Below, piece by piece: positions 10,468 to 61,943 of a DNA stretch of 64,000 bases (position 1 is the stretch's first letter; each line of letters starts with the position of its first letter). Made by a program: the position numbers and the translations under genes. The notes below the pieces were generated by a model. The model had not been told where the DNA came from, did no database searches, and saw nothing but the letters and a program-made list of their open reading frames with translations. The stretch is from a virus (Duplodnaviria > Heunggongvirae > Uroviricota > Caudoviricetes). The stretch lies in IMG/VR virus record IMGVR_UViG_3300029705_000018. The stretch is one strand, 5' to 3'.

Positions 10468-10742
10468 ATATGTGGCGCCGGTTGCCAGCGCCTTTGGGTG
10501 GACCAGGGTCTTTCGACCAGCCCAGGATTGCAGATGATATTCGCGACTATCATTTTAACGGGCCTGCTCATTTGTTTTTCTCGCCCGGTTGGTTATAGGT
10601 AACACTCTTAAACCACCGCTTTACGTCCCTTACTCGTGCTGCGGCCGCACGCAACCTGTATTTCTTAGCCCAGTTTAGGCAAAGGTTTCGCCCCGGTATT
10701 TCCAGTTTTTTCTGGTTTTCCTTCTCCTGGTGGCTTACCATC

Positions 10743-11867: not shown

Positions 11868-11937
11868 TTTCCCATACTGGATTCGAACCAGTATCACACC
11901 TATTACTTCGTGCGTTCTGCCATTAAACTAATGGGAC
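11868..11937 (-). other. tRNA-like gene with a disrupted anticodon stem (possible pseudogene)
   Basis: Acceptor GTCCCAT/ATGGGAA, D-arm and T-arm (ACTGG-TTCGAAT-CCAGT) fold well. The anticodon region GCACGAAGTAATAGGTGTG cannot form a 5-bp stem. Confidence 0.3.
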
Positions 11938-11952
11938 TTTCATCTACATATG

Positions 11953-12021
11953 TGTTCCTTATGGGACTCGAACCCACATCTCTTGCCCTCAAGCCATTCT
12001 CCCTACTTAAACTAAAGGAAC
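11953..12021 (-). other. tRNA-like gene of 69 nt with a perfect acceptor and T-arm but a 4-bp/4-nt anticodon hairpin (possible pseudogene)
   Basis: Reverse complement GTTCCTT TA ... CTTG-AGGG-CAAG ... GTGGG-TTCGAGT-CCCAT AAGGAAC A. Confidence 0.3.
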
Positions 12022-14296: not shown

Positions 14297-15019
14297 TTAC
14301 ACTAAAAATGTTTCTCCAAAAATCATTTCATAATTCATATTATCATATTCCCAATATGGAATTCGAACCAATGGAATATTATTTATAATAGCATAATTAT
14401 TTTTTTCTGCATCTGATGCTTGAGTACGAGACAATTTACTACGCTCCCAATTACTTTCATGATAATGTTGTTCACCATCATACTCAACTAGACGAATAAT
14501 TTTATTACTATTATCTAAAATGGCAAAATCAAAGCGTTTTTGACCTAAATTTTCTGGTTTATATTCTCTAATATAAGAAATATGATATTCTTCTAAAATA
14601 TCAATAATTTTTTGTTCACCTTTTGAAATCCTAGAAAAACATCCACAGCTAGTTGTATTACCAGTTCGTAAGTCTGATCCACTAATTGATTTTATATTAC
14701 CACATTCACATTTACAAATCCATTTTATACGACCAAAATTATCCCTTTCTGAGTCCATCTCAAGAACAGTAAGTTTACCGTAAACATTACCTTTTTCATC
14801 TTTAGCTAATGCTTCAAAAACTTTTTCATTTCTCAAGCAACCACAACTTTTCGTTGCTCCATTTTTGAGACTTAAACCAGCAATGGTTTTTATATTACCA
14901 CATTCACATTTACAATCCCAGTATGGTCGTTTATGTCGTTTTGATGCTTCTATATTTTTTGATAAAACAGTAAGTCTATGATAGGTATTACCAACAAGAT
15001 TTTCACCAGTTTTTGGCAT
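14297..15019 (-). CDS. double zinc-ribbon protein with a C-terminal PD-(D/E)XK-like nuclease-type domain (paralog of 18768..19520)
   Basis: Two repeats of the type CKCECGNIK...SCGC. The C-terminus ...RFDFAILDNSNKIIRLVEYDGEQHY... shares the F-DF...IEYDG-QHY motif with the small gene at 53213..53569. Confidence 0.5.
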   Translation of the reverse strand: MPKTGENLVGNTYHRLTVLSKNIEASKRHKRPYWDCKCECGNIKTIAGLSLKNGATKSCGCLRNEKVFEALAKDEKGNVYGKLTVLEMDSERDNFGRIKWICKCECGNIKSISGSDLRTGNTTSCGCFSRISKGEQKIIDILEEYHISYIREYKPENLGQKRFDFAILDNSNKIIRLVEYDGEQHYHESNWERSKLSRTQASDAEKNNYAIINNIPLVRIPYWEYDNMNYEMIFGETFLV

Positions 15020-15094: not shown

Positions 15095-16516
15095 TCAAAA
15101 ATATTTTTTATTCCTTCCGCCTTCATTCCTATTTTCGTAGCAATGAGGACATAAATATGTTTCAGTTTCTTCACAGTAAATCTTATCTGAGTTGTAATAT
15201 ATGTAATCACACTCTTCGCAGCGGAAACACTCTGTGTCATAACACTGTTGACAGATCAATTCTTCATTATCTCCAGCCACATATGCATCATCCACATACA
15301 TACGACGACCGCAACAAGCGCAATGAGTATAATTTTCATTCTCTTCTACGCCATATGCCAACTCGCAATTATCACATCGCATTGTTTCTGAATTATCTAC
15401 CCAGTCTTTGCCGCAATGTAGACAAGGCACAGAACCGCCCACTACAATGGGCTTTTCAATCAACTTTCTTACACCGCTTCGGCTCAAAGTATTATTGAAA
15501 ATCGCATAATAAGGATAGCGATAACAAGTAGAACGAAGAATGTCATTATAATTACGAGCATATCTGCCTTCTACAACTACCTCTTGGAGTGGAGCTAAGA
15601 ATCCGTTGACGATTACATACTGACAATTTAATGCCCGAGGATTGTCCTCAGGATTAGCATCATGCGGGACATAACTGTCGATATAGTCATCTTTCCAGTT
15701 GAAATACTTATAATAGCCGAATGGATGTTCTTGTTGAATCAGATTATTATAAATATTCAGTACGGTATCAATTCCACTTTTAGAGCTAAATGGATACTGG
15801 CGTCCCGCAAACATGATAGTGCTGTCTTCATGCTCATGAATCAACATACGCCACTTCTTAGAGTTCCACTTTACAGAACCAAAGTTAGGAAGTTCTGCTT
15901 CATCCATGCCTTTGAGATAAACCATAAAGGTAGTGCGGTCAGTCATATAACTCAGATTACCAGCACGATATTCTCCATCGAGGGCATGGCAACTGCGCCA
16001 GTTATATGTGTTCTCGCTACTGGACAGAAAATCCAAAGGATGAACTGAAAAACATAACTTACCCTTGATTTTATTCTCTTGGATAAGCTGGCTCGCTGCG
16101 TCCTGAATATTTCTCAGGGTTATGGGATTATGTTCAAAATACTTAAATGCCTTCAGTAGCTTCATTCCCTTTGGAATGTCACTACCTTCACATACATTTA
16201 CAACTTTATTTTCAAAAAATCCATCCAGATTTTCATCAATAAACTCAGCCAAAACAGGATTATTGAAAGTATCATAAACCTGGGTAGCAAAATCAGCTGC
16301 CCGACATCTCTTTTCCTTTTCATCCAAAGTAAATTCAATGGGTTCCGGCCATTCATAAATCAAACCGCCGAATCTCTCAATAAACTTTTCCTTGGCAAGC
16401 TCCCAGTCGTGGAATAGAGCATCCACCTGGGGATCGGGAATTGATTGAGAATAACGAATTACTTCGCAGAACTGTTCTTTGATTCTGTCGATTTCTCGCA
16501 TATTACCTCCGCACAA
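15095..16516 (-). CDS. large protein of unknown function with C-terminal multi-CxxC zinc-ribbon cluster (paralog A)
   Basis: 473 aa. Shares the blocks KGKLCFSVHPLDFLSSSENTYNWRSC, WRMLIH and GRQYPF with 20122..21717. The last ~110 aa contain at least 8 CxxC pairs. Confidence 0.55.
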   Translation of the reverse strand: MCGGNMREIDRIKEQFCEVIRYSQSIPDPQVDALFHDWELAKEKFIERFGGLIYEWPEPIEFTLDEKEKRCRAADFATQVYDTFNNPVLAEFIDENLDGFFENKVVNVCEGSDIPKGMKLLKAFKYFEHNPITLRNIQDAASQLIQENKIKGKLCFSVHPLDFLSSSENTYNWRSCHALDGEYRAGNLSYMTDRTTFMVYLKGMDEAELPNFGSVKWNSKKWRMLIHEHEDSTIMFAGRQYPFSSKSGIDTVLNIYNNLIQQEHPFGYYKYFNWKDDYIDSYVPHDANPEDNPRALNCQYVIVNGFLAPLQEVVVEGRYARNYNDILRSTCYRYPYYAIFNNTLSRSGVRKLIEKPIVVGGSVPCLHCGKDWVDNSETMRCDNCELAYGVEENENYTHCACCGRRMYVDDAYVAGDNEELICQQCYDTECFRCEECDYIYYNSDKIYCEETETYLCPHCYENRNEGGRNKKYF

Positions 16517-18767: not shown

Positions 18768-19520
18768 TCAGCCGATTGCTGAACCGGGTTCGCGCAATAA
18801 ATATTTTGATGTTTTAGGTTGAAGCATTTCCAAAGTTATATTATCTAATTCAGTATAAGGAATGCGAATAATTGGAATGCTATGTTGATGACAATATTGA
18901 TTTTTTATTTGATCATGTTCTCTCGTTTTTATAAACTTTTCTTTGTTATCATATACTCCATTACCTTGGATAAAATGTTGTCTACCATCATATTCAATAA
19001 TATAAGAATTATTTACATAAAAATCAAATCTAGCAGGGTTTTTAGTATCCTCGAATACTAAATCACTAAAACGCTTTTCTTGAATAAAAGGAATGTTATT
19101 CTGCTCTAATATTTCTTTTATTTTTCGACTACCTTTTGATTCAACTAAGCACCCACATGATTCTTGATGATGAAGATTGTCAGTCTGAATAATGGCATTT
19201 TCATTACCGCATAAATTACAGCGACAACGCCATTTATGTCTTTCTTGTCCTTTACTTCCCATGATAGACTCTAGTACAGTAAAGTTTCCAATGGTTTGTC
19301 CAACTAAATTTTTTGTAGAAGCTTCACTAGTTCTTATTTTTTGGTAACATCCACAACTTTTAGTTTTTCCATTCCGTAAAGACGCTCCTTTTACTATAGT
19401 CATTTTTCCGCACTTACATTTACATAGCCACTGGGCTCGTCCAGAAGCATCATTCTAGGCTCGGTCTATAACTTCTAAAAATTCATATATATTTCCACGT
19501 TCGTCAATTATTTTTGACAT
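18768..19520 (-). CDS. double zinc-ribbon plus PD-(D/E)XK-like domain protein (paralog of 14297..15019) with an in-frame TAG
   Basis: The six-frame ORF 18768..19403 extends upstream in the same frame through a TAG at 19455-19457 to the ATG at 19518-19520 (AGAAGGAG ribosome-binding site). The extension gives ...VIDRA-(TAG)-NDASGRAQWLCKCKCGKM..., which matches the N-terminal W-CKC-CG repeat of the paralog. Confidence 0.5.
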
Positions 19521-19614
19521 AAAATCAACTCCTTCTAATATATATGAAAAAGAGGGATAGAAATCTATCCCTCTTTGACCAAAATTATGCGACTTTACTG
19601 ACAGTTGTCCGCGA

Positions 19615-20031
19615 TTAGTCTCGAGCAATCAATCGGTAAGCCATAACCTTTCTTGCCTTAGAGCCCGCGCTGGCAGGAATGGTAACCTGAGTCTTTTCAG
19701 CGGTCTCTGCTTCAACCAGCTTGTTCAAGCGATACTGAACCTTGGAAACGGTGGCATCAGCATTGGTTTCCGCAACAGCGGCAGCGATATCAGCGATGAC
19801 CTGGAACTCATCGGTCAGAACAGCCTCGACCTGATCCATCAGAACATCAGCCTCAGCCTTCTTGGCAGCGGCACGCTCCTTAGCCTTAGCGGCCTTGGCG
19901 TCCAGAGAAGCGATCTCCTTTTCACAGAAAGCCACAACAGTGGCGGCGTCGAACTTGCAGGAGCCGGTCTCGAAAGTCTCCTTGATAGCCTCATACATCT
20001 CACGCTTAGTAATCTTTTCCATAGTTTTCAC
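19615..20031 (-). CDS. hypothetical protein
   Basis: 138 aa with an Ala/Lys/Glu-rich helical region. Promoter copy at 20060-20115 and an AAGGTG ribosome-binding site. Confidence 0.5.
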   Translation of the reverse strand: MKTMEKITKREMYEAIKETFETGSCKFDAATVVAFCEKEIASLDAKAAKAKERAAAKKAEADVLMDQVEAVLTDEFQVIADIAAAVAETNADATVSKVQYRLNKLVEAETAEKTQVTIPASAGSKARKVMAYRLIARD

Positions 20032-20121: not shown

Positions 20122-21717
20122 TTAGAGTTTTTCGATTAGAGCATCCCGCTCTTCTTCCGTAGAAGCATTGCGGATTGCCACCAACAAATCTACGGTTCGA
20201 TAATCCAGGTCAACACCCAGAGCATCTTCGTCAATATTGCGAAGGTCAAACGCAAGACGCTCGATACCGTATTCGTCCTTTACGAGAAGAACCTCGCCAT
20301 ATTCTTTCTTATAGCAACCATGCTGATAGCAGTAGTTACAGATGGAGATATAGTATCTCCAATTATCGAATGTTTCTACTCCTGGCATTTGGATGTAGAT
20401 GTGGCGCATATCAGATTCACTGGTGTGATCATCACAGCACTCACATCTTTCCAACTCATTGTAGTAGCAATACTCACAATAGAGTCTTCCATCTCCGCCA
20501 GTATAGCACTCTCCACCGGACCATTCGCCGCAGTGAGAGCAATAGAAGTAACCATTACAACGGCGGCAACGCACGTCGCAAGGATCAACTTCTTTTGGCT
20601 CAATAACCTCTCCGCATCCAGTGCAGATTGCGGGTCCAGACACGTTGAGATAGAACCGATCATTCTTGGCGAAATACTCAGGTGCCACATAAGCCAAACG
20701 CTGATTATAAATATCATTATACATATAATCCATATTCAGACTTACATAAACCCGGTTACCGCCAAAGACATTATTCTTGAAATTCTCAATCTGGCAAGTC
20801 TCTTCTGCGTAGGGGCCATAAGGCTTACAAGGAGTCATCAGCTCCCGCAACCACTTGATAGTAGTTCCCTGGAGGACGTCGCTGTTATAAGGATATTGGC
20901 GATTACCAAGAATCATTTCCGGAGAAACCACATACAACTGGCGCCAACGCTTGTTGTTCCAGGTATCTCCGTTATATTCCAAAGACATAGGTTCCTTAGC
21001 TTCCACATAGGCGATAACAACGCAGGGAGAGTTCATCATTTCGATGGTTCCCAGTCGATAATCGCCCGGCTCATCCATCCAGCTCATACAGGAACCCCAG
21101 TTAGAAGCATTATCGCTCATGGTCAAAAAGTCCAGAGGATGAATACTCAAACACAGATTACCTCTAATCTGCTTCTGGTTCAGAACCTGGGAGTGAGCCT
21201 GTCGGAAAGCCTCATAGTGCTCAGCGCAGTTAAGAGCTTCGGCAATCTTACCAAGCATCTTACTGGCCTTACAGTTCTGGTTGACCTGCAAGGGGCGACC
21301 AGTCACGGTAAAAATTGCCGGAATGGTAATAGCAGGTCCGTCATAAATATTTTTTACCAGCATCGCGTAGTCATCTACGAAACGCTTCATGTTGTAATAT
21401 TCATCGGTATAGGGAGGAAATACTGTCCTTATACGATTCTTGAATTCATTTCGGAAGAGAGCAGCAACAGGACAGCCATAGCGCAGAGTGTCTTCCATCT
21501 CTTCTTCCATGTCTTCACAAGGCTTATCAAAACAAACAGCCTTTTTGATGATAAAGTTTTCACCAAAAGCCTCGTAGAAAGGCTGTTTAGCAGTATCCCA
21601 ATAACGAAGGAAATAGTTCATTTCCTCACGGGGGAGAGGGCTTCCTCCGCTATAAAGATCCAGGTATTTCCACAGCGTGTCAACATCAACAGTTGGCAAC
21701 TTATCATACAAACTCAT
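20122..21717 (-). CDS. large protein of unknown function with C-terminal zinc-ribbon cluster (paralog B)
   Basis: 531 aa. Shares the blocks RGNLCLSIHPLDFLTMSDNASNWGSC, WRQLYV and GNRQYPY with 15095..16516. The C-terminus has many CxxC pairs. The antisense 518-aa ORF on the plus strand is a shadow ORF. Confidence 0.55.
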   Translation of the reverse strand: MSLYDKLPTVDVDTLWKYLDLYSGGSPLPREEMNYFLRYWDTAKQPFYEAFGENFIIKKAVCFDKPCEDMEEEMEDTLRYGCPVAALFRNEFKNRIRTVFPPYTDEYYNMKRFVDDYAMLVKNIYDGPAITIPAIFTVTGRPLQVNQNCKASKMLGKIAEALNCAEHYEAFRQAHSQVLNQKQIRGNLCLSIHPLDFLTMSDNASNWGSCMSWMDEPGDYRLGTIEMMNSPCVVIAYVEAKEPMSLEYNGDTWNNKRWRQLYVVSPEMILGNRQYPYNSDVLQGTTIKWLRELMTPCKPYGPYAEETCQIENFKNNVFGGNRVYVSLNMDYMYNDIYNQRLAYVAPEYFAKNDRFYLNVSGPAICTGCGEVIEPKEVDPCDVRCRRCNGYFYCSHCGEWSGGECYTGGDGRLYCEYCYYNELERCECCDDHTSESDMRHIYIQMPGVETFDNWRYYISICNYCYQHGCYKKEYGEVLLVKDEYGIERLAFDLRNIDEDALGVDLDYRTVDLLVAIRNASTEEERDALIEKL

Positions 21718-29485: not shown

Positions 29486-29755
29486 TTAGAAACCTCCTGC
29501 GAAATTCAAACAGATGTGATGAAGGTGACGATTTTCGATCCAAGCGAAAGATACGGATGCGCCGGAATTATCGGGGTAGGGATCAACGATCTCATTCCAC
29601 TGGAAGAGAGGATCTTCATATTCCAAATTTTCAAAGTATTCTTCAACGACATGAAGGGCGTCTTTGGTATATTCTTTGGAAGACACAAGATGGTCTACCT
29701 GCTCGCAGATGTTATATACTTCATCTTCAATAACAGACGGGGTGAAGCCTACCAT
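29486..29755 (-). CDS. hypothetical protein
   Basis: 89 aa. First gene downstream of the promoter copy at 29870-29920. Confidence 0.4.
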   Translation of the reverse strand: MVGFTPSVIEDEVYNICEQVDHLVSSKEYTKDALHVVEEYFENLEYEDPLFQWNEIVDPYPDNSGASVSFAWIENRHLHHICLNFAGGF

Positions 29756-29944
29756 AATTCTTTTACCTCCTGGCGTATTATTCAGTCTTACTCAGTAAGA
29801 TTTTGTATTACGCTCGGTACACGGAATTTTACTTTTCTGACGGAGCGCATTACCTTTTCTTTTACTATCTTTTCCTTTACTTTACATATATATTATATCA
29901 TAAAATTTTTACAAAATCAATTAAGATACAATTAATTAGAATAT

Positions 29945-29995
29945 AAATGTAATACGTTGTAATACAGTGTAGGACAACGTAATACAATTTTTCTT
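29945..29995. promoter_or_regulatory. direct-repeat operator-like element (TGTAATAC x3 plus a degenerate copy) in a divergent promoter region
   Basis: aaatGTAATACgttGTAATACagtGTAGGACaacGTAATACaa lies between the leftward early promoter copy and the rightward ribbon-helix-helix gene. Confidence 0.45.
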
Positions 29996-30029
29996 TCCTA
30001 ATTTTCAATAATCATACGGAGGTGATTAT

Positions 30030-30167
30030 ATGACCGTTATTACTGTAAGACTTGATGATATTGAAAAGCAATTATTACAGCAATATGCAGAAGATGAAGA
30101 TCTATCTGTGTCATAGATTATAAGACGTCTAATAAAAGAATTTTTAGACGAGAAAGTTAGAAACTAA
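30030..30167 (+). CDS. ribbon-helix-helix (CopG/Arc/MetJ-type) DNA-binding protein with an in-frame TAG
   Basis: ACGGAGGTG ribosome-binding site then ATG. The product MTVITVRLDDIEKQLLQQYAEDEDLSVS-(TAG)-IIRRLIKEFLDEKVRN has the classic beta-strand plus two-helix RHH pattern. TAG at 30114-30116. Confidence 0.55.
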
Positions 30168-30182
30168 AAAGGAGCTTGTGAA

Positions 30183-30362
30183 ATGCCAAATTCAAAAGTA
30201 AAAATTGTATACTCTTTAAGAATCCATATTGGTTTACAACAATTAGGATTTTCTTATATAACAGAAATGAAGAATCCCAAGAATCCGCATCTGAATTGTT
30301 GGGTGTATCAAGAGACTCCCGCACTTCTGAAAGCGTTTGACTCCTTGGTAAAGGAGGGGTAA
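30183..30362 (+). CDS. hypothetical small protein
   Basis: 59 aa. AAAGGAG ribosome-binding site. Confidence 0.35.
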   Translation: MPNSKVKIVYSLRIHIGLQQLGFSYITEMKNPKNPHLNCWVYQETPALLKAFDSLVKEG

Positions 30363-30751
30363 TGATGAGCGCTATTGAAACATTTGTGGTTCACAAAGAA
30401 TGGTTAGATAGTATTGCTGGATTACCCTGTGAGACTCAGGATAGAATCATTGCGGAGTTCGTTCGATATGGCTGTGGACTGGACCCTGCGCACCCTGAGG
30501 ACGCAATCGCGCAGTCTTTTGTGAATATTTTGAAAAATAGAATTGATTATAGTAAGGATCAATATGCAAAGAAAGTTGCAATGGGAAAAACTGCTGGGGC
30601 TAAGAAGAAAATTGATGACAGACAAATTTATGAGTTGGCGCAAGAAGGAAAAACTGCAACTGAAATTGCAACAATTTTGAATATATCTAAATCTTCTGTT
30701 GACCACAGTGATGGTTGGAGAAAGAGAAGAGAAAACGAATTTGTATTTTGA
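30362..30751 (+). CDS. DNA-binding protein with C-terminal helix-turn-helix
   Basis: 129 aa. The C-terminal IYELAQEGKTATEIATILNISKSSV is a typical HTH (sigma region-4 / LuxR-like). Confidence 0.5.
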   Translation: MMSAIETFVVHKEWLDSIAGLPCETQDRIIAEFVRYGCGLDPAHPEDAIAQSFVNILKNRIDYSKDQYAKKVAMGKTAGAKKKIDDRQIYELAQEGKTATEIATILNISKSSVDHSDGWRKRRENEFVF

Positions 30752-30754
30752 TTT

Positions 30755-30925
30755 GCAAAATTTGTTGCAAAGTTGCAAAAATTGTAACAATATATTCGTG
30801 CAAAGTTTGCATTTTGCATTGCATTGTACAAATCTAACTTATAACTTACAAATGCAACAATTTTGCAAATTGAATTGCAATTTTGCAACTTAATTTTTGC
30901 AATAAATTGCAAAAATTTTAGGGGA
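30755..30925. repeat. TTGCAA(A) iteron array (about 14 copies in 170 bp)
   Basis: aTTTGCAAAatttgTTGCAAAgTTGCAAAAatTGTAACaa...GTGCAAAgTTTGCATTTTGCATTGCATTGTACAAA...ACAAATGCAACAATTTTGCAAATTGAATTGCAATTTTGCAAC...TTTTTGCAATAAATTGCAAAAA, followed by a GGGGACCCCTCCGGGGATCCCC hairpin. Confidence 0.6.
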
Positions 30926-30964
30926 CCCCTCCGGGGATCCCCATCATAAAGGAGATAATGGAGA

Positions 30965-31192
30965 ATGATATATCAAAGACCGAAAGGTAATGTAAGATTT
31001 GCTTATGGTAGATTTGATGATTTACCATATGGAGCCGAAGAAGTAAAGATATTTATGGTACCTGGGGATCCAGTATTATATGTAGTACCAATTGGAGATA
31101 TTCCATATGCGTATGAGAAAAATGAACCAGAAATTCCAATGTCAGATAGGCAGTGTGAGGAGTTATTGGATTATTTTAGAGAGTACGTATAA
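30965..31192 (+). CDS. hypothetical protein
   Basis: 75 aa. AAAGGAGA ribosome-binding site. Confidence 0.45.
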   Translation: MIYQRPKGNVRFAYGRFDDLPYGAEEVKIFMVPGDPVLYVVPIGDIPYAYEKNEPEIPMSDRQCEELLDYFREYV

Positions 31193-31502
31193 TCTTTATT
31201 TGATTTTATAAAAAAATATTGTTATAATTATTATAGTATAAAAGAAAAGGTGGAAAAGGTTATATGATGCTTGTAGATGAAGGTTATCTTCATGACAATA
31301 CTATCGTGCGCATCGGGGAAGAGATGGGAATCTTTAGAAAACCCGATGAAAGCAAAGTAGAATATGTCATGAGGGTCATTCAAGAACTTCAATTCAAAAA
31401 GCCCTAAGTAGGGGTATTCAAAAAATGAATTGAAAAAATGAAATGAAAACCGAGGAACAAAATAAAAAATGAAATGAAAATCCGATTGAAAGGAAAAGTA
31501 AA

Positions 31503-31958
31503 ATGGTTTTTAGCTATAATAATTTAATGTCTGCCGCAAAGTCTGGTCAGAGACTTGGTAAGTGGAAGGATTTGCCGGTCTTTTCTTGTGATAGAATGGG
31601 ACTGGCGCAAAAAGGCAATGGTGCTTATTATGTCGTCTATGATGATGACAATGCTTTCGTGAAGAAGAGCGGTTCTATGTGGTTCAGATTTGGTTATCTG
31701 GATAAGGAAGGCTCTGTTCATGAGGACACTAAGCGAGAATATTTCCCCATCCGCACAGAGAAGGACAAGGAAGTCTTCTATTATAATGAGAAGAAAGCTA
31801 CAGTGGAGTTTGCGCCTGTACCGACCGTACATACTACTGCTTCTTCTGGAACTACGACTGCGGATGTGAAACTGGAGATTGACGTTGAGGGAACCTTGAA
31901 GAAGGCGAGGGAAATGACTATTGAAGATTTGCTCGCAGGATTCAACTACGGACTCTAA
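31503..31958 (+). CDS. hypothetical protein
   Basis: 151 aa. Confidence 0.5.
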   Translation: MVFSYNNLMSAAKSGQRLGKWKDLPVFSCDRMGLAQKGNGAYYVVYDDDNAFVKKSGSMWFRFGYLDKEGSVHEDTKREYFPIRTEKDKEVFYYNEKKATVEFAPVPTVHTTASSGTTTADVKLEIDVEGTLKKAREMTIEDLLAGFNYGL

Positions 31959-49165: not shown

Positions 49166-50218
49166 ATGTTGAAATTAGATTATACTTTAGAATCTCCAGA
49201 AGAGAGAAGAGAATTGGTTGAAAAAATTCTAGCTGAAACCCCTAATCCCTCAGAGGCGTATCTAGAAACTTTAGCTGATTATCTAGTTCTCTGTATGGAG
49301 AAACAAGAGAAAAAGGAGCGCAAACTATTAACTGATAACCGTATGGCTACAGTCAATAAGCGAGAAACTTCTTATGAAGGTCTTGTTTCCCAGCTAGAGA
49401 ATGGCGAAGACGGCATTTATAATATGATAACTAATAATAAGAATACGATTTTCCAGCCAAAAGTAATGATAACTAAACAAGATGTAGAAGAAATACCCGG
49501 TATGTAGCAATTGCGCGACGCCATCAAAATGTGGGAAACAAAATTAAAGAGTGCCTCCGGGCGAGAAGCATTTATTATTAAGAGTACAATTATTGAATTG
49601 CGAAAAGATCAATATGTTTTGAAGAACGCTTATCGTAAACCAATTGTACCAACTAAAATCACTCGTTCAAGACACGATATTCCTTTAGATGATGATTTCT
49701 GGTTTGATGACGAAGGCTATATTGTTCCAGAGGGTGTTTCTTTATGTAATCCAAAAGTAGTCTCAGCAATTCTTTGTAACTACTCCTTATGTAAACAAGA
49801 AAGTTGGGGAGAGTTTGAAAAAGATTTATGGTACTTGATGGATGACTTTGACAGAGTTGCGGATGCTGCTTTGAAAAATTATCCATTGTATGAACGAATT
49901 GTTGAGTATAAAATTGATGGATTACAAAATATTGATATTCAAGAAAAAATCCAAATGGAGTTTGGGATCAAGCATAGTTTGGAATATATCTCAAGTTTAT
50001 GGCGTAATAAAATTCCAAAGATCATTGCGTCCGAGGCGGAAGATAGACTCTTAAATTGGTACTTCATGAATGAAATGAAGGGCAAATACAAAAAGTGCAG
50101 TCGTTGCGGGCAAGTCAAATTAGCTCACAATAAATACTTTAGTAAAAATAAGACAAGCCGAGATGGTTTTTATAGCATTTGCAAATGCTGTAGAAATGCG
50201 AAGGCCAAAAGCGTGTAA
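49166..50218 (+). CDS. hypothetical protein with an in-frame TAG at 49508-49510
   Basis: ORFs 49166..49507 and 49511..50218 are in the same frame, separated only by a TAG. A C-terminal CSRCG...CKCC zinc ribbon is present. Confidence 0.5.
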
Positions 50219-50262: not shown

Positions 50263-51462
50263 ATGGCCCAAGAATCTTATTACTGTGAAAAATGTAATAG
50301 AACAATGGCGGCCGACCAGTTCTACGGTACTAATAATTTAGAAAAATATCCTGATGGTAAATTGCGCATTTGTAAGAAATGTATGACAATGCACGTAGAC
50401 AATTTCAATCCGGATACTTATTTATGGATTTTACAAGAATGCGATGTTCCATATATTCCAGAAGAATGGAATAAATTATTGGCATCATATGGTAAAGACC
50501 GCAGTAAACTGACTGGTCTGTCAATTATTGGTAGATATCTATCAAAAATGAAATTGAAGCAATTCCGAGATTATCGCTGGGAACACACCGAGCATCTTCA
50601 AGAAGTTGCGAATAAGAAAATTGAAGAGACGATGAAGCGTCAAGGATATGACGCAGTTGAAATCGCTCAAGCTGTCGCTCAGGCGACTGTCCCCGTCCCG
50701 CAGGGCATCATCGAACAACCAAAGTATGAAGAACCTAATCCATTCTTGGCATCTGGTGAAGAAGATTATTTTTCAGAGCAAAATGGTGGTCAAGATGACT
50801 TTGTTGATGATTTGACTGAAGAGGATAAAACCTATTTGCGTTTGAAATGGGGAAAAACTTATAAACCCGAAGAATGGGTTCGATTAGAACAGCTATATGA
50901 AGAAATGATGGCATCATATGATATTCAAGGTGCCGGACACATCGATACACTAAAATTGGTATGTAAGACATCTCTAAAGGCGAATCAATTAATCGACATT
51001 GGCGATATTGAAGGCTTCCAAAAGATGAGCAAAGTTTATGATAGTTTGATGAAGTCTGGTAAGTTCACCGCACAACAGAATAAAGCTGAAAGTGGTGACT
51101 TCGTTGATTCAATTGGCGAACTAATTGAAATGTGCGAAAAACAAGGATATATTGAAAGATATTATATTGAATCTCCAAAAGATAGAGTTGATATGACAAT
51201 TGCGGATATGCAGAGATATACTAAAACTCTGGTTGAAGAAGAAACCAATTTGTCAATCATGGTTGAAAAGGCTCTACGTGATATTGAGAAAGAAGATAAG
51301 GCTGAAGCTGAAAATACTGAAGATACAATTATCGATGATATTGATTTGAGTCTTGAGGATTTGGAAAAGACCTTGAAAGATCAAGATTATGTGGATTTCC
51401 AAGACTTCTTAGATGAAGAAGCTGAAGCTGACTCTGATTACTTGAATCGAGGTAGACGGTAA
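50263..51462 (+). CDS. hypothetical protein (N-terminal zinc ribbon CEKCN...CKKC; position suggests small terminase or DNA-packaging accessory)
   Basis: 399 aa with an acidic C-terminus. Immediately precedes the putative terminase large subunit. Confidence 0.4.
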   Translation: MAQESYYCEKCNRTMAADQFYGTNNLEKYPDGKLRICKKCMTMHVDNFNPDTYLWILQECDVPYIPEEWNKLLASYGKDRSKLTGLSIIGRYLSKMKLKQFRDYRWEHTEHLQEVANKKIEETMKRQGYDAVEIAQAVAQATVPVPQGIIEQPKYEEPNPFLASGEEDYFSEQNGGQDDFVDDLTEEDKTYLRLKWGKTYKPEEWVRLEQLYEEMMASYDIQGAGHIDTLKLVCKTSLKANQLIDIGDIEGFQKMSKVYDSLMKSGKFTAQQNKAESGDFVDSIGELIEMCEKQGYIERYYIESPKDRVDMTIADMQRYTKTLVEEETNLSIMVEKALRDIEKEDKAEAENTEDTIIDDIDLSLEDLEKTLKDQDYVDFQDFLDEEAEADSDYLNRGRR

Positions 51463-53201
51463 TGGCTTTACAAGATTTACTTGATTTATCAACATCCCGG
51501 AGAAAGATTGGTCTTTCTCCGGAACGTGTTGAGGCTGTTATGCCTACAATACGAAAGTACATAGCCTTTTGGAGAGAATATCCTGATTTATTCGTTGACT
51601 TTATGGTACGTGGAACTAGTACCGAAGTAAAAGATGGAGAATTCTGTTTTTATTTCTATCAAAGAGTTTTCCTTCGTTGCGTTATGAGATATTAGTATGT
51701 GTATGCGGTTTTTCCTCGTGCATATTCTAAATCTTTCTTGACTGTTATGGCATTGATGTGCCGTTGTATTTTATATCCCAATGCTCACTTGTTTGTCACT
51801 TCTGGTGGTAAGGAGCAGGGTGCTTCTATTCTACAAAGTAAAGTAGAAGAAATTTGTAAATTGATTCCCAGCTTTGAAAGAGAAATTGACTGGGGACGAG
51901 GTAAGACTTTAACTGGTAAAGATAAAGTCCGATATGTATTTAAGAATGGTTCTGTTCTGGATAACCTTGCGGCCCGTGAATCTACGCGTGGTCAGCGTCG
52001 TCATGGCGGCGTAATGGAGGAATGTGTTGGTATTGATGACCAAATCCTTCGCGAAGTTATTATCCCTGTTATGGCTATCTCTCGTCGTGCGAAAGATGGT
52101 ACTACTAATGAAAAAGAACCTTTGAATAAATCTCAGATTTATATTACAACTGCTGGATATAAAGGAACTTATCCATATGATAGATTGATTGGTTTCTTGG
52201 TTCGTATGGTCACTCAGCCCGATCGCTGTATTGTGCTTGGTGGTACTTGGAGAACGCCAGTGGCAATGGGATTACAGAGTAAAACATTCATTACCGACCA
52301 GAAGAATGAAGGTACTTATAATGAAGCCTCTTTCGAGCGTGAGTATGAGTCTAAGTGGTCTGGTACTGTTGAAGATGCATTCTTCAATGGAGAACATTTT
52401 ACTCGTAATAGAAAATTATTACAACCTGAATATGAACATTCCGGAAGGTCTGCGGCCGGCGCTTATTATGTGCTATCAGTCGACGTAGGTCGTAAGGGAT
52501 GTGATTCTGTTGTTTGTGTATTCAAGGTGACGCCGCAGGCGCAAGGCCCTGCTATCAAGTCTTTGGTAAATATTTATACAATGGCTGATGAACACTTTGA
52601 AGATCAAGCAATTAAGCTGAAAAAACTGTTCTATAAGTATAAAGCTAGAACTCTCGTAATCGACGGTAATGGTGTTGGTTTGGGTCTAATTGATTATATG
52701 ATTAAATCTTAGAATGATGAAAATGGAGACTTCTATCCTGACTTTGGCGTTCAAAACGACGATGAAGGTTATTATAAAAAGTATAGAACAGCTAATACTG
52801 AATATGATGCTATGTATATTATCAAGGCAAATGCGCCAATCAATACAGAGTGTCACGCAAACGCACAAAGCCAACTTGCGGCCGGTAAGGTAAAATTCTT
52901 GATTGATGAAAGAACAGCAAGAGAAAAATTACTGGGAACCGCAAAAGGTTAGAAAATGAAGCCTGAGGAAAGGGCAGAATACCTTCAACCATTTACCCTA
53001 ACTTCCATATTGAAAGAGGAAATGATGAATTTGCGTGAAGAAAATGAAGGCATAAATATCATTTTGAAACAAGCAAATCGTGGAATTAGGAAGGATAAGT
53101 TTTCTGCGTTTGAATATGGTTTGTATTATATAAAACAAGAAGAAGATAAAAAGAAGAAGAAAAAGAGATTTAACGCTGCTGATTGGGCGTTTTATAATTA
53201 A
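51462..53201 (+). CDS. putative terminase large subunit with three in-frame TAG codons
   Basis: ORFs 51462..51695, 51699..52712 and 52956..53201 are in one frame, joined through TAGs at 51696, 52713 and 52950. The C-terminal half has RNaseH-like nuclease motifs (YVLSVDVGRKGCDSVVCVF, LVIDGNGVGLGLID). The gene is followed by an endonuclease-like insert and the portal gene. Confidence 0.55.
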
Positions 53202-53583: not shown

Positions 53584-55182
53584 TTGGATAAGTTAACTAG
53601 ACAAGAAGAAATTCGTGCCAAAGGTTTTGACATGGGTGGAACTACCTATGGTAAAATTAAAATTGGAACTAAAACACTTGAAGATGCCGTTTTGAATTTA
53701 GGTTCAATTCAAAAGGAAACTAGAAACATCATCAATAAAGGCGTTATTTATCGTGCGCTTGCGGATAATGATGTTGAGAAGTTAAGAGAGATTTCTAATT
53801 ACTTCTATAAGACCAGCGGTATCTATCAAAGAGTATGTAATTATTTCGCTACTATGTATCGTTATGATTGGTATGTTGTTCCAGAAGTATACGATGAAAG
53901 TATCAAAGAAGAAAAGATTGTTGGAGATTTCCATAAGGTCTTGAACTTCTTAGATAATTCATATGTCAAAAAAGTTTGCGGTGATATGGCTCTTGGCGTT
54001 ATCAAGAATGGCGCTTATTATGGATATATCGTTCCCACCTCAAAAGGAATTATTATTCAAGAGTTGCCTGTAAATTATTGCCGTTCTCGTTTTAGTTTGA
54101 ATAATTTACCAACTGTTGAGTTCAATATGAAGTTTTTTGATGTTATGTTCCCAGATACTGGATACAGAATGAAAGTATTGAATTTGTTCCCAGAAGAGTT
54201 CAAGAAGGGATATGCTGCTTACAAGAGTGGTAAGTTACTTCCTGAAAGTCCATGGGATAGAGATAGTGGTTGGTATTTGTTGGACCCAGAGAAAACCGTG
54301 AAATTTAGTTTTAGTAATGGTGGATTCGGCGGTGTCGATTTACCATTATTTATCAATGCGATTCCTCTTATTTTGGATTTGGATGCGGCTCAGGATTTGG
54401 ATCGTAGAAAGCAAATGCAAAAGTTATTGAAAATTGTAGTTCAGAAACTCCCATTAGATAAAAATGGTGATTTGATTTTTGACGTCGATGAAGCAAGAGA
54501 TATTCATAATAATGCTGTTTAGATGTTGAAGCGTGCGGTTGGTGTTGACGTATTGACTACTTTCGCTGATATTGAAAGTATTGATATGTCTGATAAGAAT
54601 ACTACTACTACTCAAGATGACTTGATGAAAGTTGAGCGTAGTGTATATAATGCTTTTGGTGTTCCGCAAAGTTTATTTAACTCTGATAGTAATTTAGCAA
54701 TGAATTTATCTGTGCTAAATGATGAAGGTGCGGTCCGCACCTTGTTGCTACAATTTGGTGTTTTCTTTGATAGACTAACACAGAATTTTGGTGCGAATAA
54801 AAAGAAATACAATTTTAGATTCTATATGCTTGAGACTACTCAGTATAACTACAAAGAGTTGTCTAAGATGTATAAAGAATGTGTTCAGTTAGGATATTCT
54901 AAGATGTTGCCTCAAATTGCTTTAGGCCATTCTCAGAGTGCTATCTTGAATACTGCTTACTTTGAAAATGAAGTTTTACATTTGAGTGAAGTTATGATTC
55001 CTCCGCTGATGTCTTCTACTATGAATATGCAAGACTTAAAGGGCAATTCTAATCAAACTCAAACTAACAAAACTCAAACTAAATCAGGAGGATAGTCTTC
55101 TGAGAAGTCTGCGGGCCGACCGGAGAAACCAGACAATCAAAAGAGCGATAAGACTATCCAAAATAAAGAATCTATGAGCTAA
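53584..55182 (+). CDS. putative portal protein with two in-frame TAG codons
   Basis: ORFs 53584..54522 and 54523..55095 are contiguous in frame through a TAG at 54520. The frame continues through a TAG at 55093 to a TAA at 55180. About 530 aa, directly downstream of the terminase large subunit. Confidence 0.5.
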
Positions 55183-60277: not shown

Positions 60278-61324
60278 ATGGCATCAGGTTATGATTTAAG
60301 TAGTCAAATCCCTTTTAGATTGATGAAAGGCCGATTAGGAGTTTATGATAAAAGAAAGTTTGATCCAAAGAAGAGTGGGGTTGATGGAGTTCTTCATCAA
60401 TCAGCTCGTATGGGACAAGCTGGCGGTAATCTATAGCAAGAGCGAATGATTAAAGATAAACGTCGTTCTTTAGACCATGCGGTTTGGTATTCTTATCAAG
60501 GTGCAAAAGTTATTCCTGTAGATGCGAGCGATCGGACGCCGATCCGCGCACTTATCAATCCGAATAAGTTGAAAATGGATTATGATGATAAAATTATTTC
60601 AGTGGGCTATGAATATAACTTTGCTCCTGGAACGGTTTTTGAGTGGGTTGGTACAGGAACTTATTGGATTGTACAATTACAAGATTTAACTGAATTAGCT
60701 TATTTTCGTGGAGATATAAGAAGATGCCGTTATGAAATTGCTTGGGAAGATGAAAACGGTAAGCATAAAACTTATGCGGCTGTTAGAGGTCCCGTTGAAA
60801 CGAAAATCAATTATATTCAAAAGCATGGAATAAGTGTTGATACTCCTAATCTTTCGCTGAATCTTTATTTACCATTAAATGAAGATACAAAAAATTATTT
60901 CAAACGTTATTCTAAATTTTATTTGTAGAATGATGATACTTGTTGGCGTGTTGAAGCTCTTGATTGGATTTCTACTCCTGGTATTTTAGAGATTGCCGCA
61001 GTTGAATATTATGCAAATGAATTTGAAGATGATGTTGAAAATGGTGTTGTAGATGGATTAATTGAAGAAATTCCAGATCCAAATGTAGCTGGTGGTAAGA
61101 TTATTGGTGATACCTTCATTAAAATTAGACAACCTGCTGTGTTTAAATTTGATGGTAATATTGGAGCAGTCTGGGAAGTGGATAAAAAATATCCTGTGAC
61201 CTTAGATATTGATAAAGATGATCCTCGTATAGTAGTAGTTACCTGGGAAGGATCATTCAGCGGTTAGTTTGAATTGAGATATTCAAAATATAGTAAGACT
61301 ATTGTAGTAGAATCTCTATTTTAA
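60278..61324 (+). CDS. hypothetical tail-region protein with three in-frame TAG codons
   Basis: ATG at 60278 (GGAG ribosome-binding site). The six-frame ORF 60446..60928 is in the same frame. TAGs at 60434, 60926 and 61265. The frame ends at TAA 61322-61324. Invisible to a standard-code ORF scan. Confidence 0.45.
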
Positions 61325-61350
61325 GAACTAAGAGTAAAAGGAGTGTTTAT

Positions 61351-61941: not shown

Positions 61942-61943
61942 TT

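What the first reader, a model, noticed from the sequence alone, without database searches (positions are those of the whole stretch)
29760..30960. Regulatory hub: divergent promoters, TGTAATAC direct repeats, RHH and HTH regulators, and a TTGCAA iteron array
The minus-strand early region ends at 29755. Between it and the first plus-strand gene lies an early-promoter copy facing left and three and a half TGTAATAC direct repeats (29947-29995). To the right come a ribbon-helix-helix gene (30030..30167, containing a TAG), a 59-aa ORF and a 129-aa HTH protein. Immediately after, a 170-bp array holds about 14 TTGCAA(A)/TTGCAT half-palindromes (30755-30925), capped by a GGGGACCCC...GGGGATCCCC hairpin. 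The same TGCAAA core recurs in the TTTGTGCAAAAT boxes of the 34-45 kb modules. This is organised like an origin or partition (iteron/centromere) region or a master operator, with the RHH or HTH protein as the likely binder.
Basis: partly seen in the sequence, partly recalled or inferred. Interest (0 to 1): 0.65.

Follow-up and report, generated by a model that had tools for sequence, protein, structure and literature searches.

The report
Probable jumbo-phage replication origin cassette
A dense cluster of TTGCAA repeats sits directly after a small DNA-binding gene whose relatives are phage replication initiators carrying their origin repeats at the same spot, so this is most likely where a large, uncultivated gut phage starts copying its DNA.

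Summary
A 3-gene rightward operon (RHH, 59-aa protein, 129-aa DUF6291+HTH protein) is followed by about 15 TTGCAA-type hexamers at 30753-30912, then a hairpin.

The array is conserved behind the same gene in about 16 related lineages from ~200-kb phage contigs, with 7 to 35 hexamers. It is always split by a short AT-rich centre.

DUF6291 proved to be the N-terminal domain of a large, undescribed family of phage replisome-organizer-like proteins:
- Some members carry a DnaD-type domain.
- Their next gene is often DnaB helicase, a primase-helicase or SSB.
- 79 of 80 sampled genes carry 11-bp-period iterons immediately 3' of the domain-coding part.

The window's array lies at that homologous position, but outside the gene, because the gene stops after the HTH.

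Best reading (about 0.55): an iteron-type replication origin with its origin-binding protein and a CopG-like RHH regulator. This rests on homology and context, not on any direct assay.

Tests of the alternatives:
- No partition NTPase lies nearby.
- The terminase gene is 20 kb away.
- GC skew is uninformative.

Strand-specific UUCG-capped hairpins show that the array is transcribed rightward. The in-frame TAG encodes Gln. The link to the TTTGTGCAAAAT boxes is unproven.

The parts
29892..29920 (-). Leftward sigma-A-type promoter (TTGATT, 17 nt, TGaTATAAT) of the adjacent minus-strand early block. It forms the divergent partner of the cassette.
   Evidence: One search gives 10/12 matches with an extended -10. 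It belongs to a family of about 18 near-identical promoters. It is conserved in L001, L004, L007, L009, L010 and L011.
29948..29987 (.). Four 10-bp-spaced repeats: TGTAATACGT, TGTAATACAG, TGTAGGACAA, CGTAATACAA. They lie between the leftward promoter and the RHH gene. They are probably an operator of the RHH protein or an upstream promoter element (inferred).
   Evidence: Relatives keep 2-3 units of the GTnGGACAAn type with 10-bp spacing at the same place. No canonical rightward promoter was found here.
30030..30167 (+). Ribbon-helix-helix gene (45 aa; DUF6290 / RHH_1 / RelB- and CopG-like). It has one in-frame TAG at 30114-30116 that is read as Gln.
   Evidence: Pfam DUF6290 E = 5.5e-10 and RHH_1 E = 4e-7. 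NCBIfam gives sub-threshold matches to RelB and to the ORF56 copy-control protein. The TAG aligns with Gln in L004, L010, L011 and L012. The TAG sits at the same codon in L001 and L007.
30183..30362 (+). 59-aa protein, a distant DUF5659-like small alpha/beta protein. Its function is unknown.
30362..30751 (+). 129-aa protein made of a DUF6291 domain (residues 7-82) and a resolvase/LuxR/sigma-r4-like three-helix HTH (about residues 81-115). Proposed origin-binding protein. It corresponds to the DNA-binding portion of a replisome organizer and lacks a DnaD-type C-terminal domain.
30753..30830 (.). Left block of hexamers: TTGCAA x3, TTGTAA, GTGCAA, TTGCAT x3, TTGTAC.
   Evidence: The left block varies from about 4 to more than 20 hexamers among relatives.
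30834..30850 (.). Conserved AT-rich centre CTAACTTATAACTTACA, made of two tandem heptamers TAACTTA. It occurs once in the window. Proposed unwinding region or second-protein site (inferred).
   Evidence: Relatives have CTATCTTATATCTTACA, where both heptamers differ together. Three lineages instead have an AT-only centre such as GCAATATATAATATACA.
30846..30912 (.). Right block of hexamers: TTACAA, ATGCAA, TTGCAA x5.
   Evidence: The right block, with 4-7 hexamers over 60-80 bp, is the best conserved part across lineages.
30921..30942 (+). GC-rich hairpin GGGGACCCC-UCCG-GGGGAUCCCC with a UNCG-type loop. It acts at the RNA level on the rightward transcript. On the + strand it has no U-tract.
   Evidence: A hairpin at this position occurs in 7 of the 8 lineages folded, with unrelated stems. 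CTTCG is present on the + strand in 8 of 16 lineages against 0.9 expected, while the complement CGAAG is present in 1 of 16.
30965..31192 (+). 75-aa ORF that starts right after the hairpin, with a Shine-Dalgarno sequence at 30950-30956. No promoter lies in between, so it is probably co-transcribed through the array. Function unknown.
   Evidence: The next promoter is at 31200-31228.

Best explanation
The region is a compact replication-control cassette of a ~200-kb gut phage that decodes TAG as Gln and probably infects Lachnospiraceae. The cassette is a three-gene rightward operon followed by an iteron-type origin of replication.

Proposed mechanism:
- The 129-aa DUF6291+HTH protein is the DNA-binding portion of a phage replisome organizer. 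It binds as dimers to the palindromic (T)TTGCAA(A) sites.
- The two blocks of bound sites flank a 16-17-bp AT-rich centre, which is distorted or opened there.
- Rightward transcription from the operon passes through the array and ends or pauses at the UNCG-capped hairpin. This may help activation.
- The RHH protein acts like CopG, repressing the operon through the 10-bp repeats upstream.

What is shown: the anatomy, its conservation, the family relationship, and the position of the array relative to the gene.

What is inferred: who binds what, unwinding at the centre, origin activity itself, and the role of the RHH and 59-aa proteins.
For: (1) The array is statistically real. It lies directly 3' of the same gene in every relative examined, about 16 lineages with 49-99% protein identity. 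Copy number ranges from 7 to 35, but the motif is kept.

(2) The array is always bipartite around a short AT-rich centre that lacks hexamers. This matches the architecture reported for SaPI origins: 6-12 penta- or hexanucleotide iterons immediately downstream of rep, with an AT-rich centre (PMC9371898).

(3) A profile search found 963 DUF6291 proteins. Longer members add a DnaD-type DnaB_2 domain or a Phg_2220_C domain. P0200 aligns with the window protein through the HTH and then continues into a repeat-coded linker and a DnaD domain.

(4) In 79 of 80 viral loci with a DUF6291 gene, a tandem array of period 11, 22 or 33 lies at about +215 to +350 nt from the gene start. The background is 0.08 arrays per 600 bp. 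L013, L014 and L095 show the same feature. This is the lambda O / SPP1 gene 38 arrangement, with the origin inside the initiator gene (PMC6316719).

(5) The genes next to ordinary DUF6291 genes are DnaB helicase, Toprim-DnaB_C primase-helicase, SSB and a P-loop NTPase. L013 has integrase, CI, RecT and RusA followed by DUF6291+DnaB_2.

(6) Spacings between neighbouring hexamers peak at 11-12 bp, and the summed periodogram peaks at 10.75 bp.

(7) The most divergent subclade (L012, L118 type) has an altered recognition helix (KDPSSITH in place of SKSSVDH) and altered hexamers (TTTACAA / TTGTAAA).

(8) An RHH gene upstream of an initiator gene, with repeats at its promoter, is the CopG-Rep layout. 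The RHH gives sub-threshold matches to plasmid copy-control and replication-regulator RHH families.
Against: No experiment and no replication-specific signal supports the origin reading.
- GC skew does not single out the site. The window minimum is at 49,098, and both skew switches coincide with gene-strand switches.
- The protein lacks the DnaD-type domain. No helicase, loader, primase or polymerase was recognised within several kb. The step from binding to replisome loading therefore has no candidate.
- The sites are palindromic hexamers in very high copy number, unlike the asymmetric AACC-type 11-bp iterons of ordinary family members.
- Strict helical phasing is significant only in L010.
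- The array is not the most AT-rich segment of the window.
- No DnaA boxes cluster here.
- The strand-specific UUCG hairpins show that an RNA-level feature is under selection. This fits a transcription-control or RNA role equally well.
- In three lineages the centre holds a consensus TATAAT placed 16-17 bp after a hexamer. The array could therefore simply surround a promoter.
Confidence: 0.55

Rival explanations
1. The array is a transcription-control region. It would be a multi-operator array wrapped around a promoter in the AT-rich centre, and around the operon's 3' end. One of the three operon proteins would bind it to time early-to-middle expression or to titrate that protein.
For: - In L217, L218 and L219 the centre contains TATAAT placed 16-17 bp after a TTGCAA, TTGTAA or TTGCAT hexamer, giving 10/12 matches.
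- In the window the centre is flanked by TTGTAC and TTACAA, giving a 9/12 leftward match.
- The hairpins are RNA-type and strand-specific.
- RHH and HTH proteins are typical regulators.
- TGCAA-containing boxes lie just upstream of the -35 element of some promoters at 34-44 kb.
Against: - In the window and in L001, L009 and L010 the promoter-critical -11A or -7T is missing on both strands. No promoter is conserved across the clade.
- Arrays of 15-35 sites are far more than operators need.
- This reading does not explain why the array sits at the position of the internal iterons of a replication-initiator family.
- The TTTGTGCAA boxes differ from the hexamer, reading TGTGCAA.
Confidence: 0.2
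2. The array is a partition (centromere-like) site of a plasmid-like prophage. The RHH protein (ParR- or omega-like) or the HTH protein would bind it.
For: - R1 parC consists of two blocks of iterons flanking a promoter and is bound by an RHH protein. Omega of pSM19035 binds arrays of 7-10 short heptads. Both points rest on established knowledge, not on tests made here.
- An RHH gene is present.
- The array is bipartite.
Against: - No ParA, ParM or TubZ-like gene lies in the operon. No ORF longer than 151 aa lies on the + strand between 30.0 and 32.0 kb. None was found in the seven annotated related loci.
- The array follows the HTH gene rather than preceding an NTPase operon.
- No integrase or plasmid-maintenance genes were detected among the window genes tested.
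- The genome looks like a lytic jumbo phage, with about 55 strong early and middle promoters, 31 tRNAs and its own sigma factor.
Confidence: 0.07
3. The functional entity is an RNA. It would be a structured 3' UTR or short RNA carrying many self-complementary UUGCAA motifs and a UUCG-capped terminal hairpin, acting for example as a protein sponge or a stability element.
For: - CTTCG is strand-specific, in 8 of 16 lineages against 1 of 16 for the complement.
- Hairpins are conserved in position with unrelated stems.
- In the window no promoter lies between the array and the next ORF, so the array is transcribed.
Against: - No Rfam family matches.
- The left block varies from about 4 to more than 20 copies with no conserved secondary structure.
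- The motif is a perfect DNA palindrome with 11-12-bp neighbour spacing, which is typical of duplex-DNA recognition by dimers.
- All three operon proteins have, or resemble, DNA-binding or unknown folds. None is a known RNA binder.
Confidence: 0.08
4. The array is a packaging (pac) or genome-terminus recognition region, with the HTH protein acting as a small terminase.
For: - There are weak HTH-only matches to small-terminase PHROGs, with E = 0.014-0.07.
- Arrays of short repeats occur near T7-type termini (from memory, not tested here).
- One related contig (L009) ends about 580 bp after the gene.
Against: - The large terminase and portal genes are 20 kb away, at 51.5-55.2 kb, in the late block.
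- The two ~200-kb related contigs do not end at this locus.
- The family context is replication, not packaging.
Confidence: 0.03

Closest known systems
Phage replisome-organizer origins that lie inside or beside the initiator gene (lambda O with ori-lambda; SPP1 gp38 with oriL)
   Same: - A cluster of short repeats at about one helical turn spacing lies right after the DNA-binding part of the initiator, next to an AT-rich segment. For SPP1 this is documented as direct repeats plus an AT-rich unwinding element, with oriL inside gene 38 (PMC6316719).
- Palindromic sites bound by dimers and an inverted repeat beside the origin occur in lambda (from memory).
- The wider DUF6291 family shows exactly this layout.
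   Different: - Here the gene ends after the HTH, so the repeats are non-coding.
- No DnaD-type or helicase-recruiting domain or adjacent loader or helicase is present.
- There are 15-35 hexamers instead of 4-9 iterons.
- No sequence relationship to O or gp38 was shown.
SaPI (Staphylococcus aureus pathogenicity island) replication origins
   Same: Short penta- or hexanucleotide iterons lie immediately downstream of the initiator ORF. They are split into two sets by a central AT-rich region (PMC9371898).
   Different: - The SaPI initiator is a self-loading helicase with a winged-helix domain. Here it is a 129-aa DUF6291+HTH protein with no ATPase.
- SaPI has 6-12 iterons pointing in opposite directions. 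Here the hexamer is itself a palindrome and more numerous.
CopG-RepB type copy-control operons of small plasmids (pMV158)
   Same: A small RHH gene lies directly upstream of the initiator gene in one operon, with repeats at the operon's promoter region. The RHH gives sub-threshold matches to plasmid copy-control and replication-regulator RHH families.
   Different: - No HUH rolling-circle Rep is present.
- Binding of the RHH protein to the 10-bp repeats is untested.
- No canonical promoter was identified for the operon.
R1 parC/ParR and pSM19035 omega centromeres
   Same: Arrays of short repeats in two blocks around a central element, together with an RHH protein in the locus.
   Different: No partner NTPase is present (tested, not met). 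The array lies 3' of an HTH gene from a replication-initiator family.

Membership tests
Pfam DUF6291 (PF19808) protein family | Match to the family HMM above the curated gathering score. | tested here: met
   The score is 35.5 bits against a cut-off of 27.2, over residues 7-82. All 57 full-length homologues carry PF19808.
Iteron-type phage origin linked to its initiator gene (lambda O / SPP1 gp38 / SaPI type) | A cluster of several short repeats inside or directly beside the initiator gene. | tested here: met
   There are 8 exact and about 7 variant hexamers within 160 bp, starting 2 bp after the stop codon. The same holds in about 16 related lineages.
Iteron-type phage origin linked to its initiator gene (lambda O / SPP1 gp38 / SaPI type) | The adjacent gene encodes a replication initiator or replisome organizer. 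| tested here: inconclusive
   Family-level evidence is strong: fusions to the DnaB_2 domain, DnaB, primase or SSB genes as neighbours, and internal iterons in 79 of 80 genes. This member, however, has only the DNA-binding portion, and no family member has been studied experimentally.
Iteron-type phage origin linked to its initiator gene (lambda O / SPP1 gp38 / SaPI type) | An AT-rich unwinding element next to or between the repeats. | tested here: inconclusive
   A conserved AT-rich centre of 16-17 bp is present, and the array has 26% GC. It is short, it is not the AT maximum of the window, and unwinding cannot be computed here.
Iteron-type phage origin linked to its initiator gene (lambda O / SPP1 gp38 / SaPI type) | A helicase or helicase-loader recruiting function in the initiator or an adjacent gene. 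| tested here: not met
   No DnaD/DnaB_2, DnaC or DnaB match was found in the operon or in the neighbouring ORFs tested.
Iteron-type phage origin linked to its initiator gene (lambda O / SPP1 gp38 / SaPI type) | The initiator binds the repeats, and the region supports initiation of replication. | not testable with these tools
   This needs EMSA or footprinting, origin cloning, or marker-frequency analysis.
Plasmid-type partition cassette (ParR/parC, omega, TubR/tubC) | A cognate NTPase gene (ParA, ParM or TubZ) in the same cassette. | tested here: not met
   No + strand ORF longer than 151 aa lies between 30.0 and 32.0 kb. The neighbours give no NTPase family match, and none appears in the seven annotated related loci.
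Plasmid-type partition cassette (ParR/parC, omega, TubR/tubC) | A centromere made of repeats and bound by a small RHH or HTH protein. | tested here: inconclusive
   Both the repeats and an RHH gene are present. Binding is untested.
Rho-independent terminator | A GC-rich hairpin followed by a U-tract on the transcribed strand. | tested here: not met
   The hairpin is present, but on the + strand it is followed by ATCATAAAGG. The T-run lies on the opposite strand. L007, L105 and L147 do have T-runs.
Genetic code 15 phages (TAG read as Gln) | In-frame TAG codons in conserved genes that align with Gln in relatives. | tested here: met
   This holds for the RHH gene and the 59-aa gene in the window, L001, L007 and L009. 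All internal stops are TAG. The TerL and portal ORFs become full length only when TAG is read through.
Genetic code 15 phages (TAG read as Gln) | A suppressor tRNA with anticodon CUA. | tested here: not met
   None of the 31 tRNAs in the window has this anticodon. Two odd tRNA-like Rfam hits at 11868-12021 were not resolved. About two thirds of the genome lies outside the window.

The most novel reading that the evidence does not exclude
The cassette is a plasmid-like cop-rep-ori unit in which the switch of genetic code acts as the timer.
- The RHH repressor carries a TAG at the same codon in three lineages.
- It can therefore be made full length only after the phage has switched the cell to reading TAG as Gln.
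- The initiator operon and the origin would then be free early in infection and shut down late.
- In addition, initiation would proceed from a minimal DNA-binding-only organizer with no recognisable helicase-recruiting domain. This would imply an undescribed route to replisome loading, possibly through the transcript that crosses the array.
Probability: 0.15. Interest if true: 0.75.

Novelty: new variant of a known kind. Interest (0 to 1): 0.45.

Why it matters
- If the reading is right, it pins down the replication origin and origin-binding protein of a clade of ~200-kb gut phages that read TAG as Gln. Most genes of this clade that were tested match no family of known function.
- It gives a functional assignment to a Pfam domain of unknown function. 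DUF6291 would be the origin-binding N-terminal domain of a widespread phage initiator family with embedded 11-bp iterons. No held paper mentions this domain.
- The assignment would improve annotation of at least the 519 viral contigs found to carry the gene.
- It provides a simple rule for locating origins in those contigs: the period-11 array directly 3' of the domain.
- The jumbo-phage version separates DNA binding from replisome recruitment. That makes it a useful test case for how origins work without a DnaD-type domain.

Tried and rejected
- **Nucleotide and protein searches of INPHARED phages and PLSDB plasmids.** No match was found, so no annotated relative is available.
- **A single-protein scan of IMG/VR.** No relative was found.
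- **PDB sequence search.** The only hit was a de novo designed repeat protein (8vd6), which is irrelevant. A profile of the wider family hit nothing.
- **Rfam.** Nothing was found in the region.
- **DnaA boxes.** There is no clustering.
- **GC skew and AT maxima.** Neither is informative.
- **Promoter in the centre.** The idea was considered and not adopted, because the critical -10 positions are not conserved across lineages.
- **Resemblance of the centre to pC194/phiX-type nick sites (CTTGATA).** This was recalled from memory only. No HUH protein was seen, so it was dropped.
- **Pfam and PHROGs on large neighbouring ORFs.** They gave mostly no function, so no replication enzymes could be placed near the array.
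- **A metagenome scan with the 17-bp centre.** Most hits were chance matches. Only 13-14 of the 120 loci from that scan belong to the clade.
- **DUF5659 upstream of ordinary DUF6291 genes.** It was found only in L095, not in the 80 IMG/VR loci.
Full report
**What is there.**
The window is part of a large phage genome. It holds:
- 31 tRNA genes at 1-13.6 kb;
- about 55 strong sigma-A-type promoters in two families;
- a late block from 49.1 kb with a phage sigma factor, large terminase, portal and structural genes.

The flagged region lies between two leftward-transcribed blocks.
- The last minus-strand ORF ends at 29755.
- A leftward promoter TTGATT-17-TGaTATAAT lies at 29920..29892.
- Four units spaced exactly 10 bp apart follow at 29948-29987.

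A short rightward operon comes next:
- an RHH gene at 30030-30167 with one in-frame TAG;
- a 59-aa ORF at 30183-30362;
- a 129-aa ORF at 30362-30751.

Two bases after that stop codon the hexamer array begins. It has 8 exact TTGCAA (of 24 in the whole window) and about 7 one-base variants between 30753 and 30912. A Markov model of the local composition gives a mean of 2.0 exact copies, and 2 of 5000 simulations reach 8. A GC-rich hairpin with a UCCG loop follows at 30921-30942 (dG -16.7). The next ORF starts at 30965 with no promoter in between.

**The TAG.**
The in-frame TAG of the RHH gene aligns with Gln in the RHH proteins of L004, L010, L011 and L012. L001 and L007 have a TAG at the same codon. 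L001, L007 and L009 have further in-frame stops in the RHH or 59-aa genes, and all of these are TAG. The terminase and portal ORFs become full length only with TAG read through. This clade therefore reads TAG as Gln, a known phenomenon in gut phages (bioRxiv 10.1101/2021.08.26.457843; PMC9523058). The RHH is a real gene (Pfam DUF6290 E = 5.5e-10, RHH_1 E = 4e-7).

**Conservation.**
No annotated phage or plasmid resembles the region. The 129-aa protein does have homologues on metagenomic contigs of up to 213 kb.

In every related locus the gene order is the same. A minus-strand block is followed by a divergent promoter, an RHH gene (in L009 replaced by a GIY-YIG gene), the 59-aa gene, the DUF6291-HTH gene, a non-coding gap and then small plus-strand genes.

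In every locus the gap holds the array:
- 21 exact TTGCAA in L001, 18 in L007, 23 in L009 and 25 in L010;
- mixed TTGCAT, TTGCAA and TTGTAA in L011;
- TTGCAA plus CTGCAAAA and TTGTTAAAA in L004;
- TTTACAA and TTGTAAAAAC in the most distant subclade, L012 and L118.

A metagenome scan with the 17-bp centre returned mostly chance hits. Every hit that also had an array had the DUF6291-HTH gene directly upstream. The two exceptions are short contigs, one cut before the gene and one holding only its end. Four further loci lie in Lachnospiraceae or Eubacteriales MAGs, which suggests the host clade.

**Fine structure.**
The array is always bipartite. A variable left block of about 4 to more than 20 hexamers and a better conserved right block of 4-7 hexamers flank a 16-17-bp AT-rich centre without hexamers.
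- In most lineages the centre is C-TATCTTA-TATCTTA-CA.
- In the window, L001 and L007 it is C-TAACTTA-TAACTTA-CA, so both heptamers differ together.
- In L217 and L219 the centre is GCAATATATAATATACA, and in L218 AAAACTATAATATATTT.

Neighbour spacings peak at 11-12 bp, with secondary peaks at 7-8 and 22-23 bp. The summed periodogram peaks at 10.75 bp, but only L010 is significant on its own and the window is not.

After the right block, 7 of the 8 lineages folded have a stable hairpin, and the stems are unrelated. CTTCG, the DNA form of a cUUCGg tetraloop, occurs on the plus strand in 8 of 16 lineages against 0.9 expected. Its complement occurs in only 1 of 16. The hairpin therefore works in the rightward RNA, and the array is transcribed.

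**The proteins.**
The 129-aa protein consists of DUF6291 (35.5 bits against a cut-off of 27.2) and a resolvase/LuxR/sigma-r4-like HTH. Its AF2 model (pLDDT 88) gave only generic HTH matches.

The decisive information came from the family.
- A profile search of 1.8 billion representative proteins found 963 DUF6291 proteins.
- Longer members carry a DnaD-type DnaB_2 domain (P0200, P0208-P0210, P0229, P0292, P0295, P0296) or a Phg_2220_C domain.
- P0200 aligns with the window protein through the HTH. It then continues into a repeat-coded linker, an Asp/Asn/Val-rich stretch and the DnaD domain.
- In the temperate phage L013 the gene follows integrase, CI, RecT and RusA genes.
- In a Bacteroides prophage (L014) it precedes a P-loop NTPase.
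- In IMG/VR loci the next gene is DnaB helicase (L016, L042, L054), a Toprim-DnaB_C primase-helicase (L023), SSB (L020) or a P-loop NTPase (L017).

These are replication modules, and the DUF6291 gene holds the replisome-organizer position.

**Iterons in the family.**
In L013 and L014 the part of the gene just after the DUF6291 domain consists of repeats with an 11-bp (or 21-bp) period, of the AACCTAGAAA or AAACCAAAGAA type. I sampled 80 IMG/VR loci out of 519 relatives. In 79 of them TRF finds an array of period 11, 22 or 33 at about +215 to +350 nt from the gene start. Elsewhere in the same loci the rate is 0.08 arrays per 600 bp. Many of the 80 loci are close relatives, but at least four distinct consensus types occur.

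L095 encodes a DUF6291+HTH protein of 303 aa. Its AACCCCACT repeats lie immediately after the HTH-coding part, and two DUF5659 genes lie directly upstream.

The window's 59-aa protein is itself a distant DUF5659 relative. hhalign gives 96.9% probability, and 4 of 22 clade members touch PF18903. The unit 'DUF5659-like gene, DUF6291+HTH gene, repeats' is therefore shared between a small phage and this jumbo clade.

An origin embedded in the initiator gene next to an AT-rich segment is the classical arrangement of SPP1 gene 38 with oriL (PMC6316719), and of lambda O (from memory). Short hexanucleotide iterons immediately downstream of the initiator ORF, split by an AT-rich centre, is the SaPI arrangement (PMC9371898).

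**Interpretation.**
The window's array lies at the position homologous to the internal iterons of a replication-initiator family. It is non-coding because the gene ends after the HTH.

The most economical explanation is an iteron-type origin whose binding protein is the 129-aa DUF6291+HTH protein. One independent contrast fits HTH-hexamer recognition: the L012/L118 subclade has both an altered recognition helix and altered hexamers.

The RHH upstream, with 10-bp repeats at the 5' end of the operon, resembles CopG-Rep copy-control operons. It gives sub-threshold matches to plasmid copy-control and replication-regulator RHH families. Relatives keep 2-3 units of the GTnGGACAAn type there.

I put this explanation at about 0.55, because every step beyond anatomy and homology is inferred.

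**What weakens it.**
- The protein lacks a DnaD-type domain, and no helicase, loader, primase or polymerase was recognised among the neighbours.
- GC skew does not help. The cumulative minimum of the window is at 49,098 and a local minimum is at 28,068. Both fall at gene-strand switches.
- There is no DnaA-box cluster.
- The hexamers are palindromic and far more numerous than ordinary iterons.
- RNA-level selection on the hairpin fits a transcription-control role just as well.
- A consensus TATAAT lies 16-17 bp after a hexamer in L217-L219, which also fits that role.
- In the window and in L001, L009 and L010, however, the critical -10 positions are missing on both strands. A promoter in the centre is therefore not a conserved feature.

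**Rivals.**
- A partition site is unlikely (0.07), because no NTPase gene lies in or near the cassette here or in the seven annotated related loci.
- A packaging site is unlikely (0.03), because the terminase and portal genes are 20 kb away and the complete-length relatives do not end here.
- An RNA element (0.08) would explain the hairpin. It would not explain the variable, palindromic, roughly helically spaced DNA motif, and it has no Rfam match.
- A regulatory multi-operator (0.2) remains the main alternative and is not exclusive of an origin.

**The TTTGTGCAAAAT boxes.**
They are enriched, with 27 matches at up to 2 mismatches against 13.2 +/- 3.6 expected. They lie 5-25 bp upstream of the -35 element of a subset of promoters at 34-44 kb. 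They read TGTGCAA rather than TTGCAA, and nothing ties them to the array.

**Novelty and score.**
Iteron origins beside initiator genes are textbook. Three things are new here:
- the assignment of DUF6291, which no held paper mentions, as the N-terminal domain of a large phage initiator family with embedded period-11 iterons;
- the jumbo-phage variant, which has a DNA-binding-only protein, non-coding palindromic hexamers in 15-35 copies around a conserved AT-rich centre, and transcription into a UNCG-capped hairpin;
- a TAG codon in the putative repressor of the cassette.

I rate this as a new variant of a known kind, with interest 0.45.

Noticed in passing
window 2984-3609 (-): A full-length ROOL RNA (Rfam RF03087, 323 bits against a gathering score of 99) lies inside the phage tRNA array.
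   Followed up: no
window 10489-10524 (-); 11868-11937 and 11953-12021 (-): There is a DUF3800-XI RNA motif hit. Two further tRNA-like Rfam hits were not called by ARAGORN and have atypical anticodon arms. No suppressor tRNA with anticodon CUA is among the 31 called tRNAs, although the phage reads TAG as Gln.
   Followed up: partly
window 30114-30116; also 51462-53201, 53584-55182 and 60278-62669: TAG is used as a sense (Gln) codon. It appears in late genes (TerL has 3, portal has 2) and also in the RHH gene of this early-looking cassette. The TAG lies at the same RHH codon in L001 and L007.
   Followed up: partly
window 1-32.8 kb versus 33-49 kb: There are two sharply distinct promoter families. 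About 18 copies of TTGATTTTtAtAAAAAAATATGtTATAATATATATGTAA lie in the left part. About 35 copies of cctcTTGACAAAtcc...TGnTAyAAT lie at 33-49 kb. Almost all are on the minus strand.
   Followed up: partly
window 36052, 39375, 43529 (+); 34684, 37711, 37832 (-): TTTGTGCAAwTT boxes sit 5-25 bp upstream of the -35 element of a subset of promoters. Three of these are rightward promoters (TTGACAAATTGGCTGG...TGGTATAAT) embedded in a leftward gene block. They could drive antisense or short transcripts.
   Followed up: partly
window 49166-50218 (+): A phage-encoded sigma factor (phrog_5767, E = 1.7e-51) with a C-terminal zinc-ribbon/HNH-like tail opens the late block. The window's cumulative GC-skew minimum (49,098) lies in the divergent promoter region just upstream.
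   Followed up: no
window 15095-16516 (-) and 20122-21717 (-): Two large Cys-rich paralogous proteins (473 and 531 aa) both match phrog_18912. Two smaller paralogues lie at 14297-15019 and 18768-19628 and share CGC zinc-ribbon-type repeats. Their function is unknown.
   Followed up: no
window 31416-31485; L001, L011 and L217 upstream of the homologous gene: A conserved leader with GAAAAAATGAAATGAAAA-type repeats precedes the conserved 145-151-aa gene (window 31503-31958).
   Followed up: no
L009 4241-4807; L011 about 5690-6030: GIY-YIG homing-endonuclease genes are inserted at the edges of the cassette in two relatives. One replaces the RHH gene in L009. The other lies directly after the hairpin in L011.
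   Followed up: no
L216-L219 (genome contigs): Relatives of the cassette occur on contigs binned into Lachnospiraceae or Eubacteriales MAGs. This is the only host clue obtained.
   Followed up: partly
L015-L094 (IMG/VR): In ordinary DUF6291 genes the iteron period is 11 bp, but TRF most often reports 33 bp. This fits an 11-bp DNA repeat constrained by the reading frame, since 11 x 3 = 33.
   Followed up: partly
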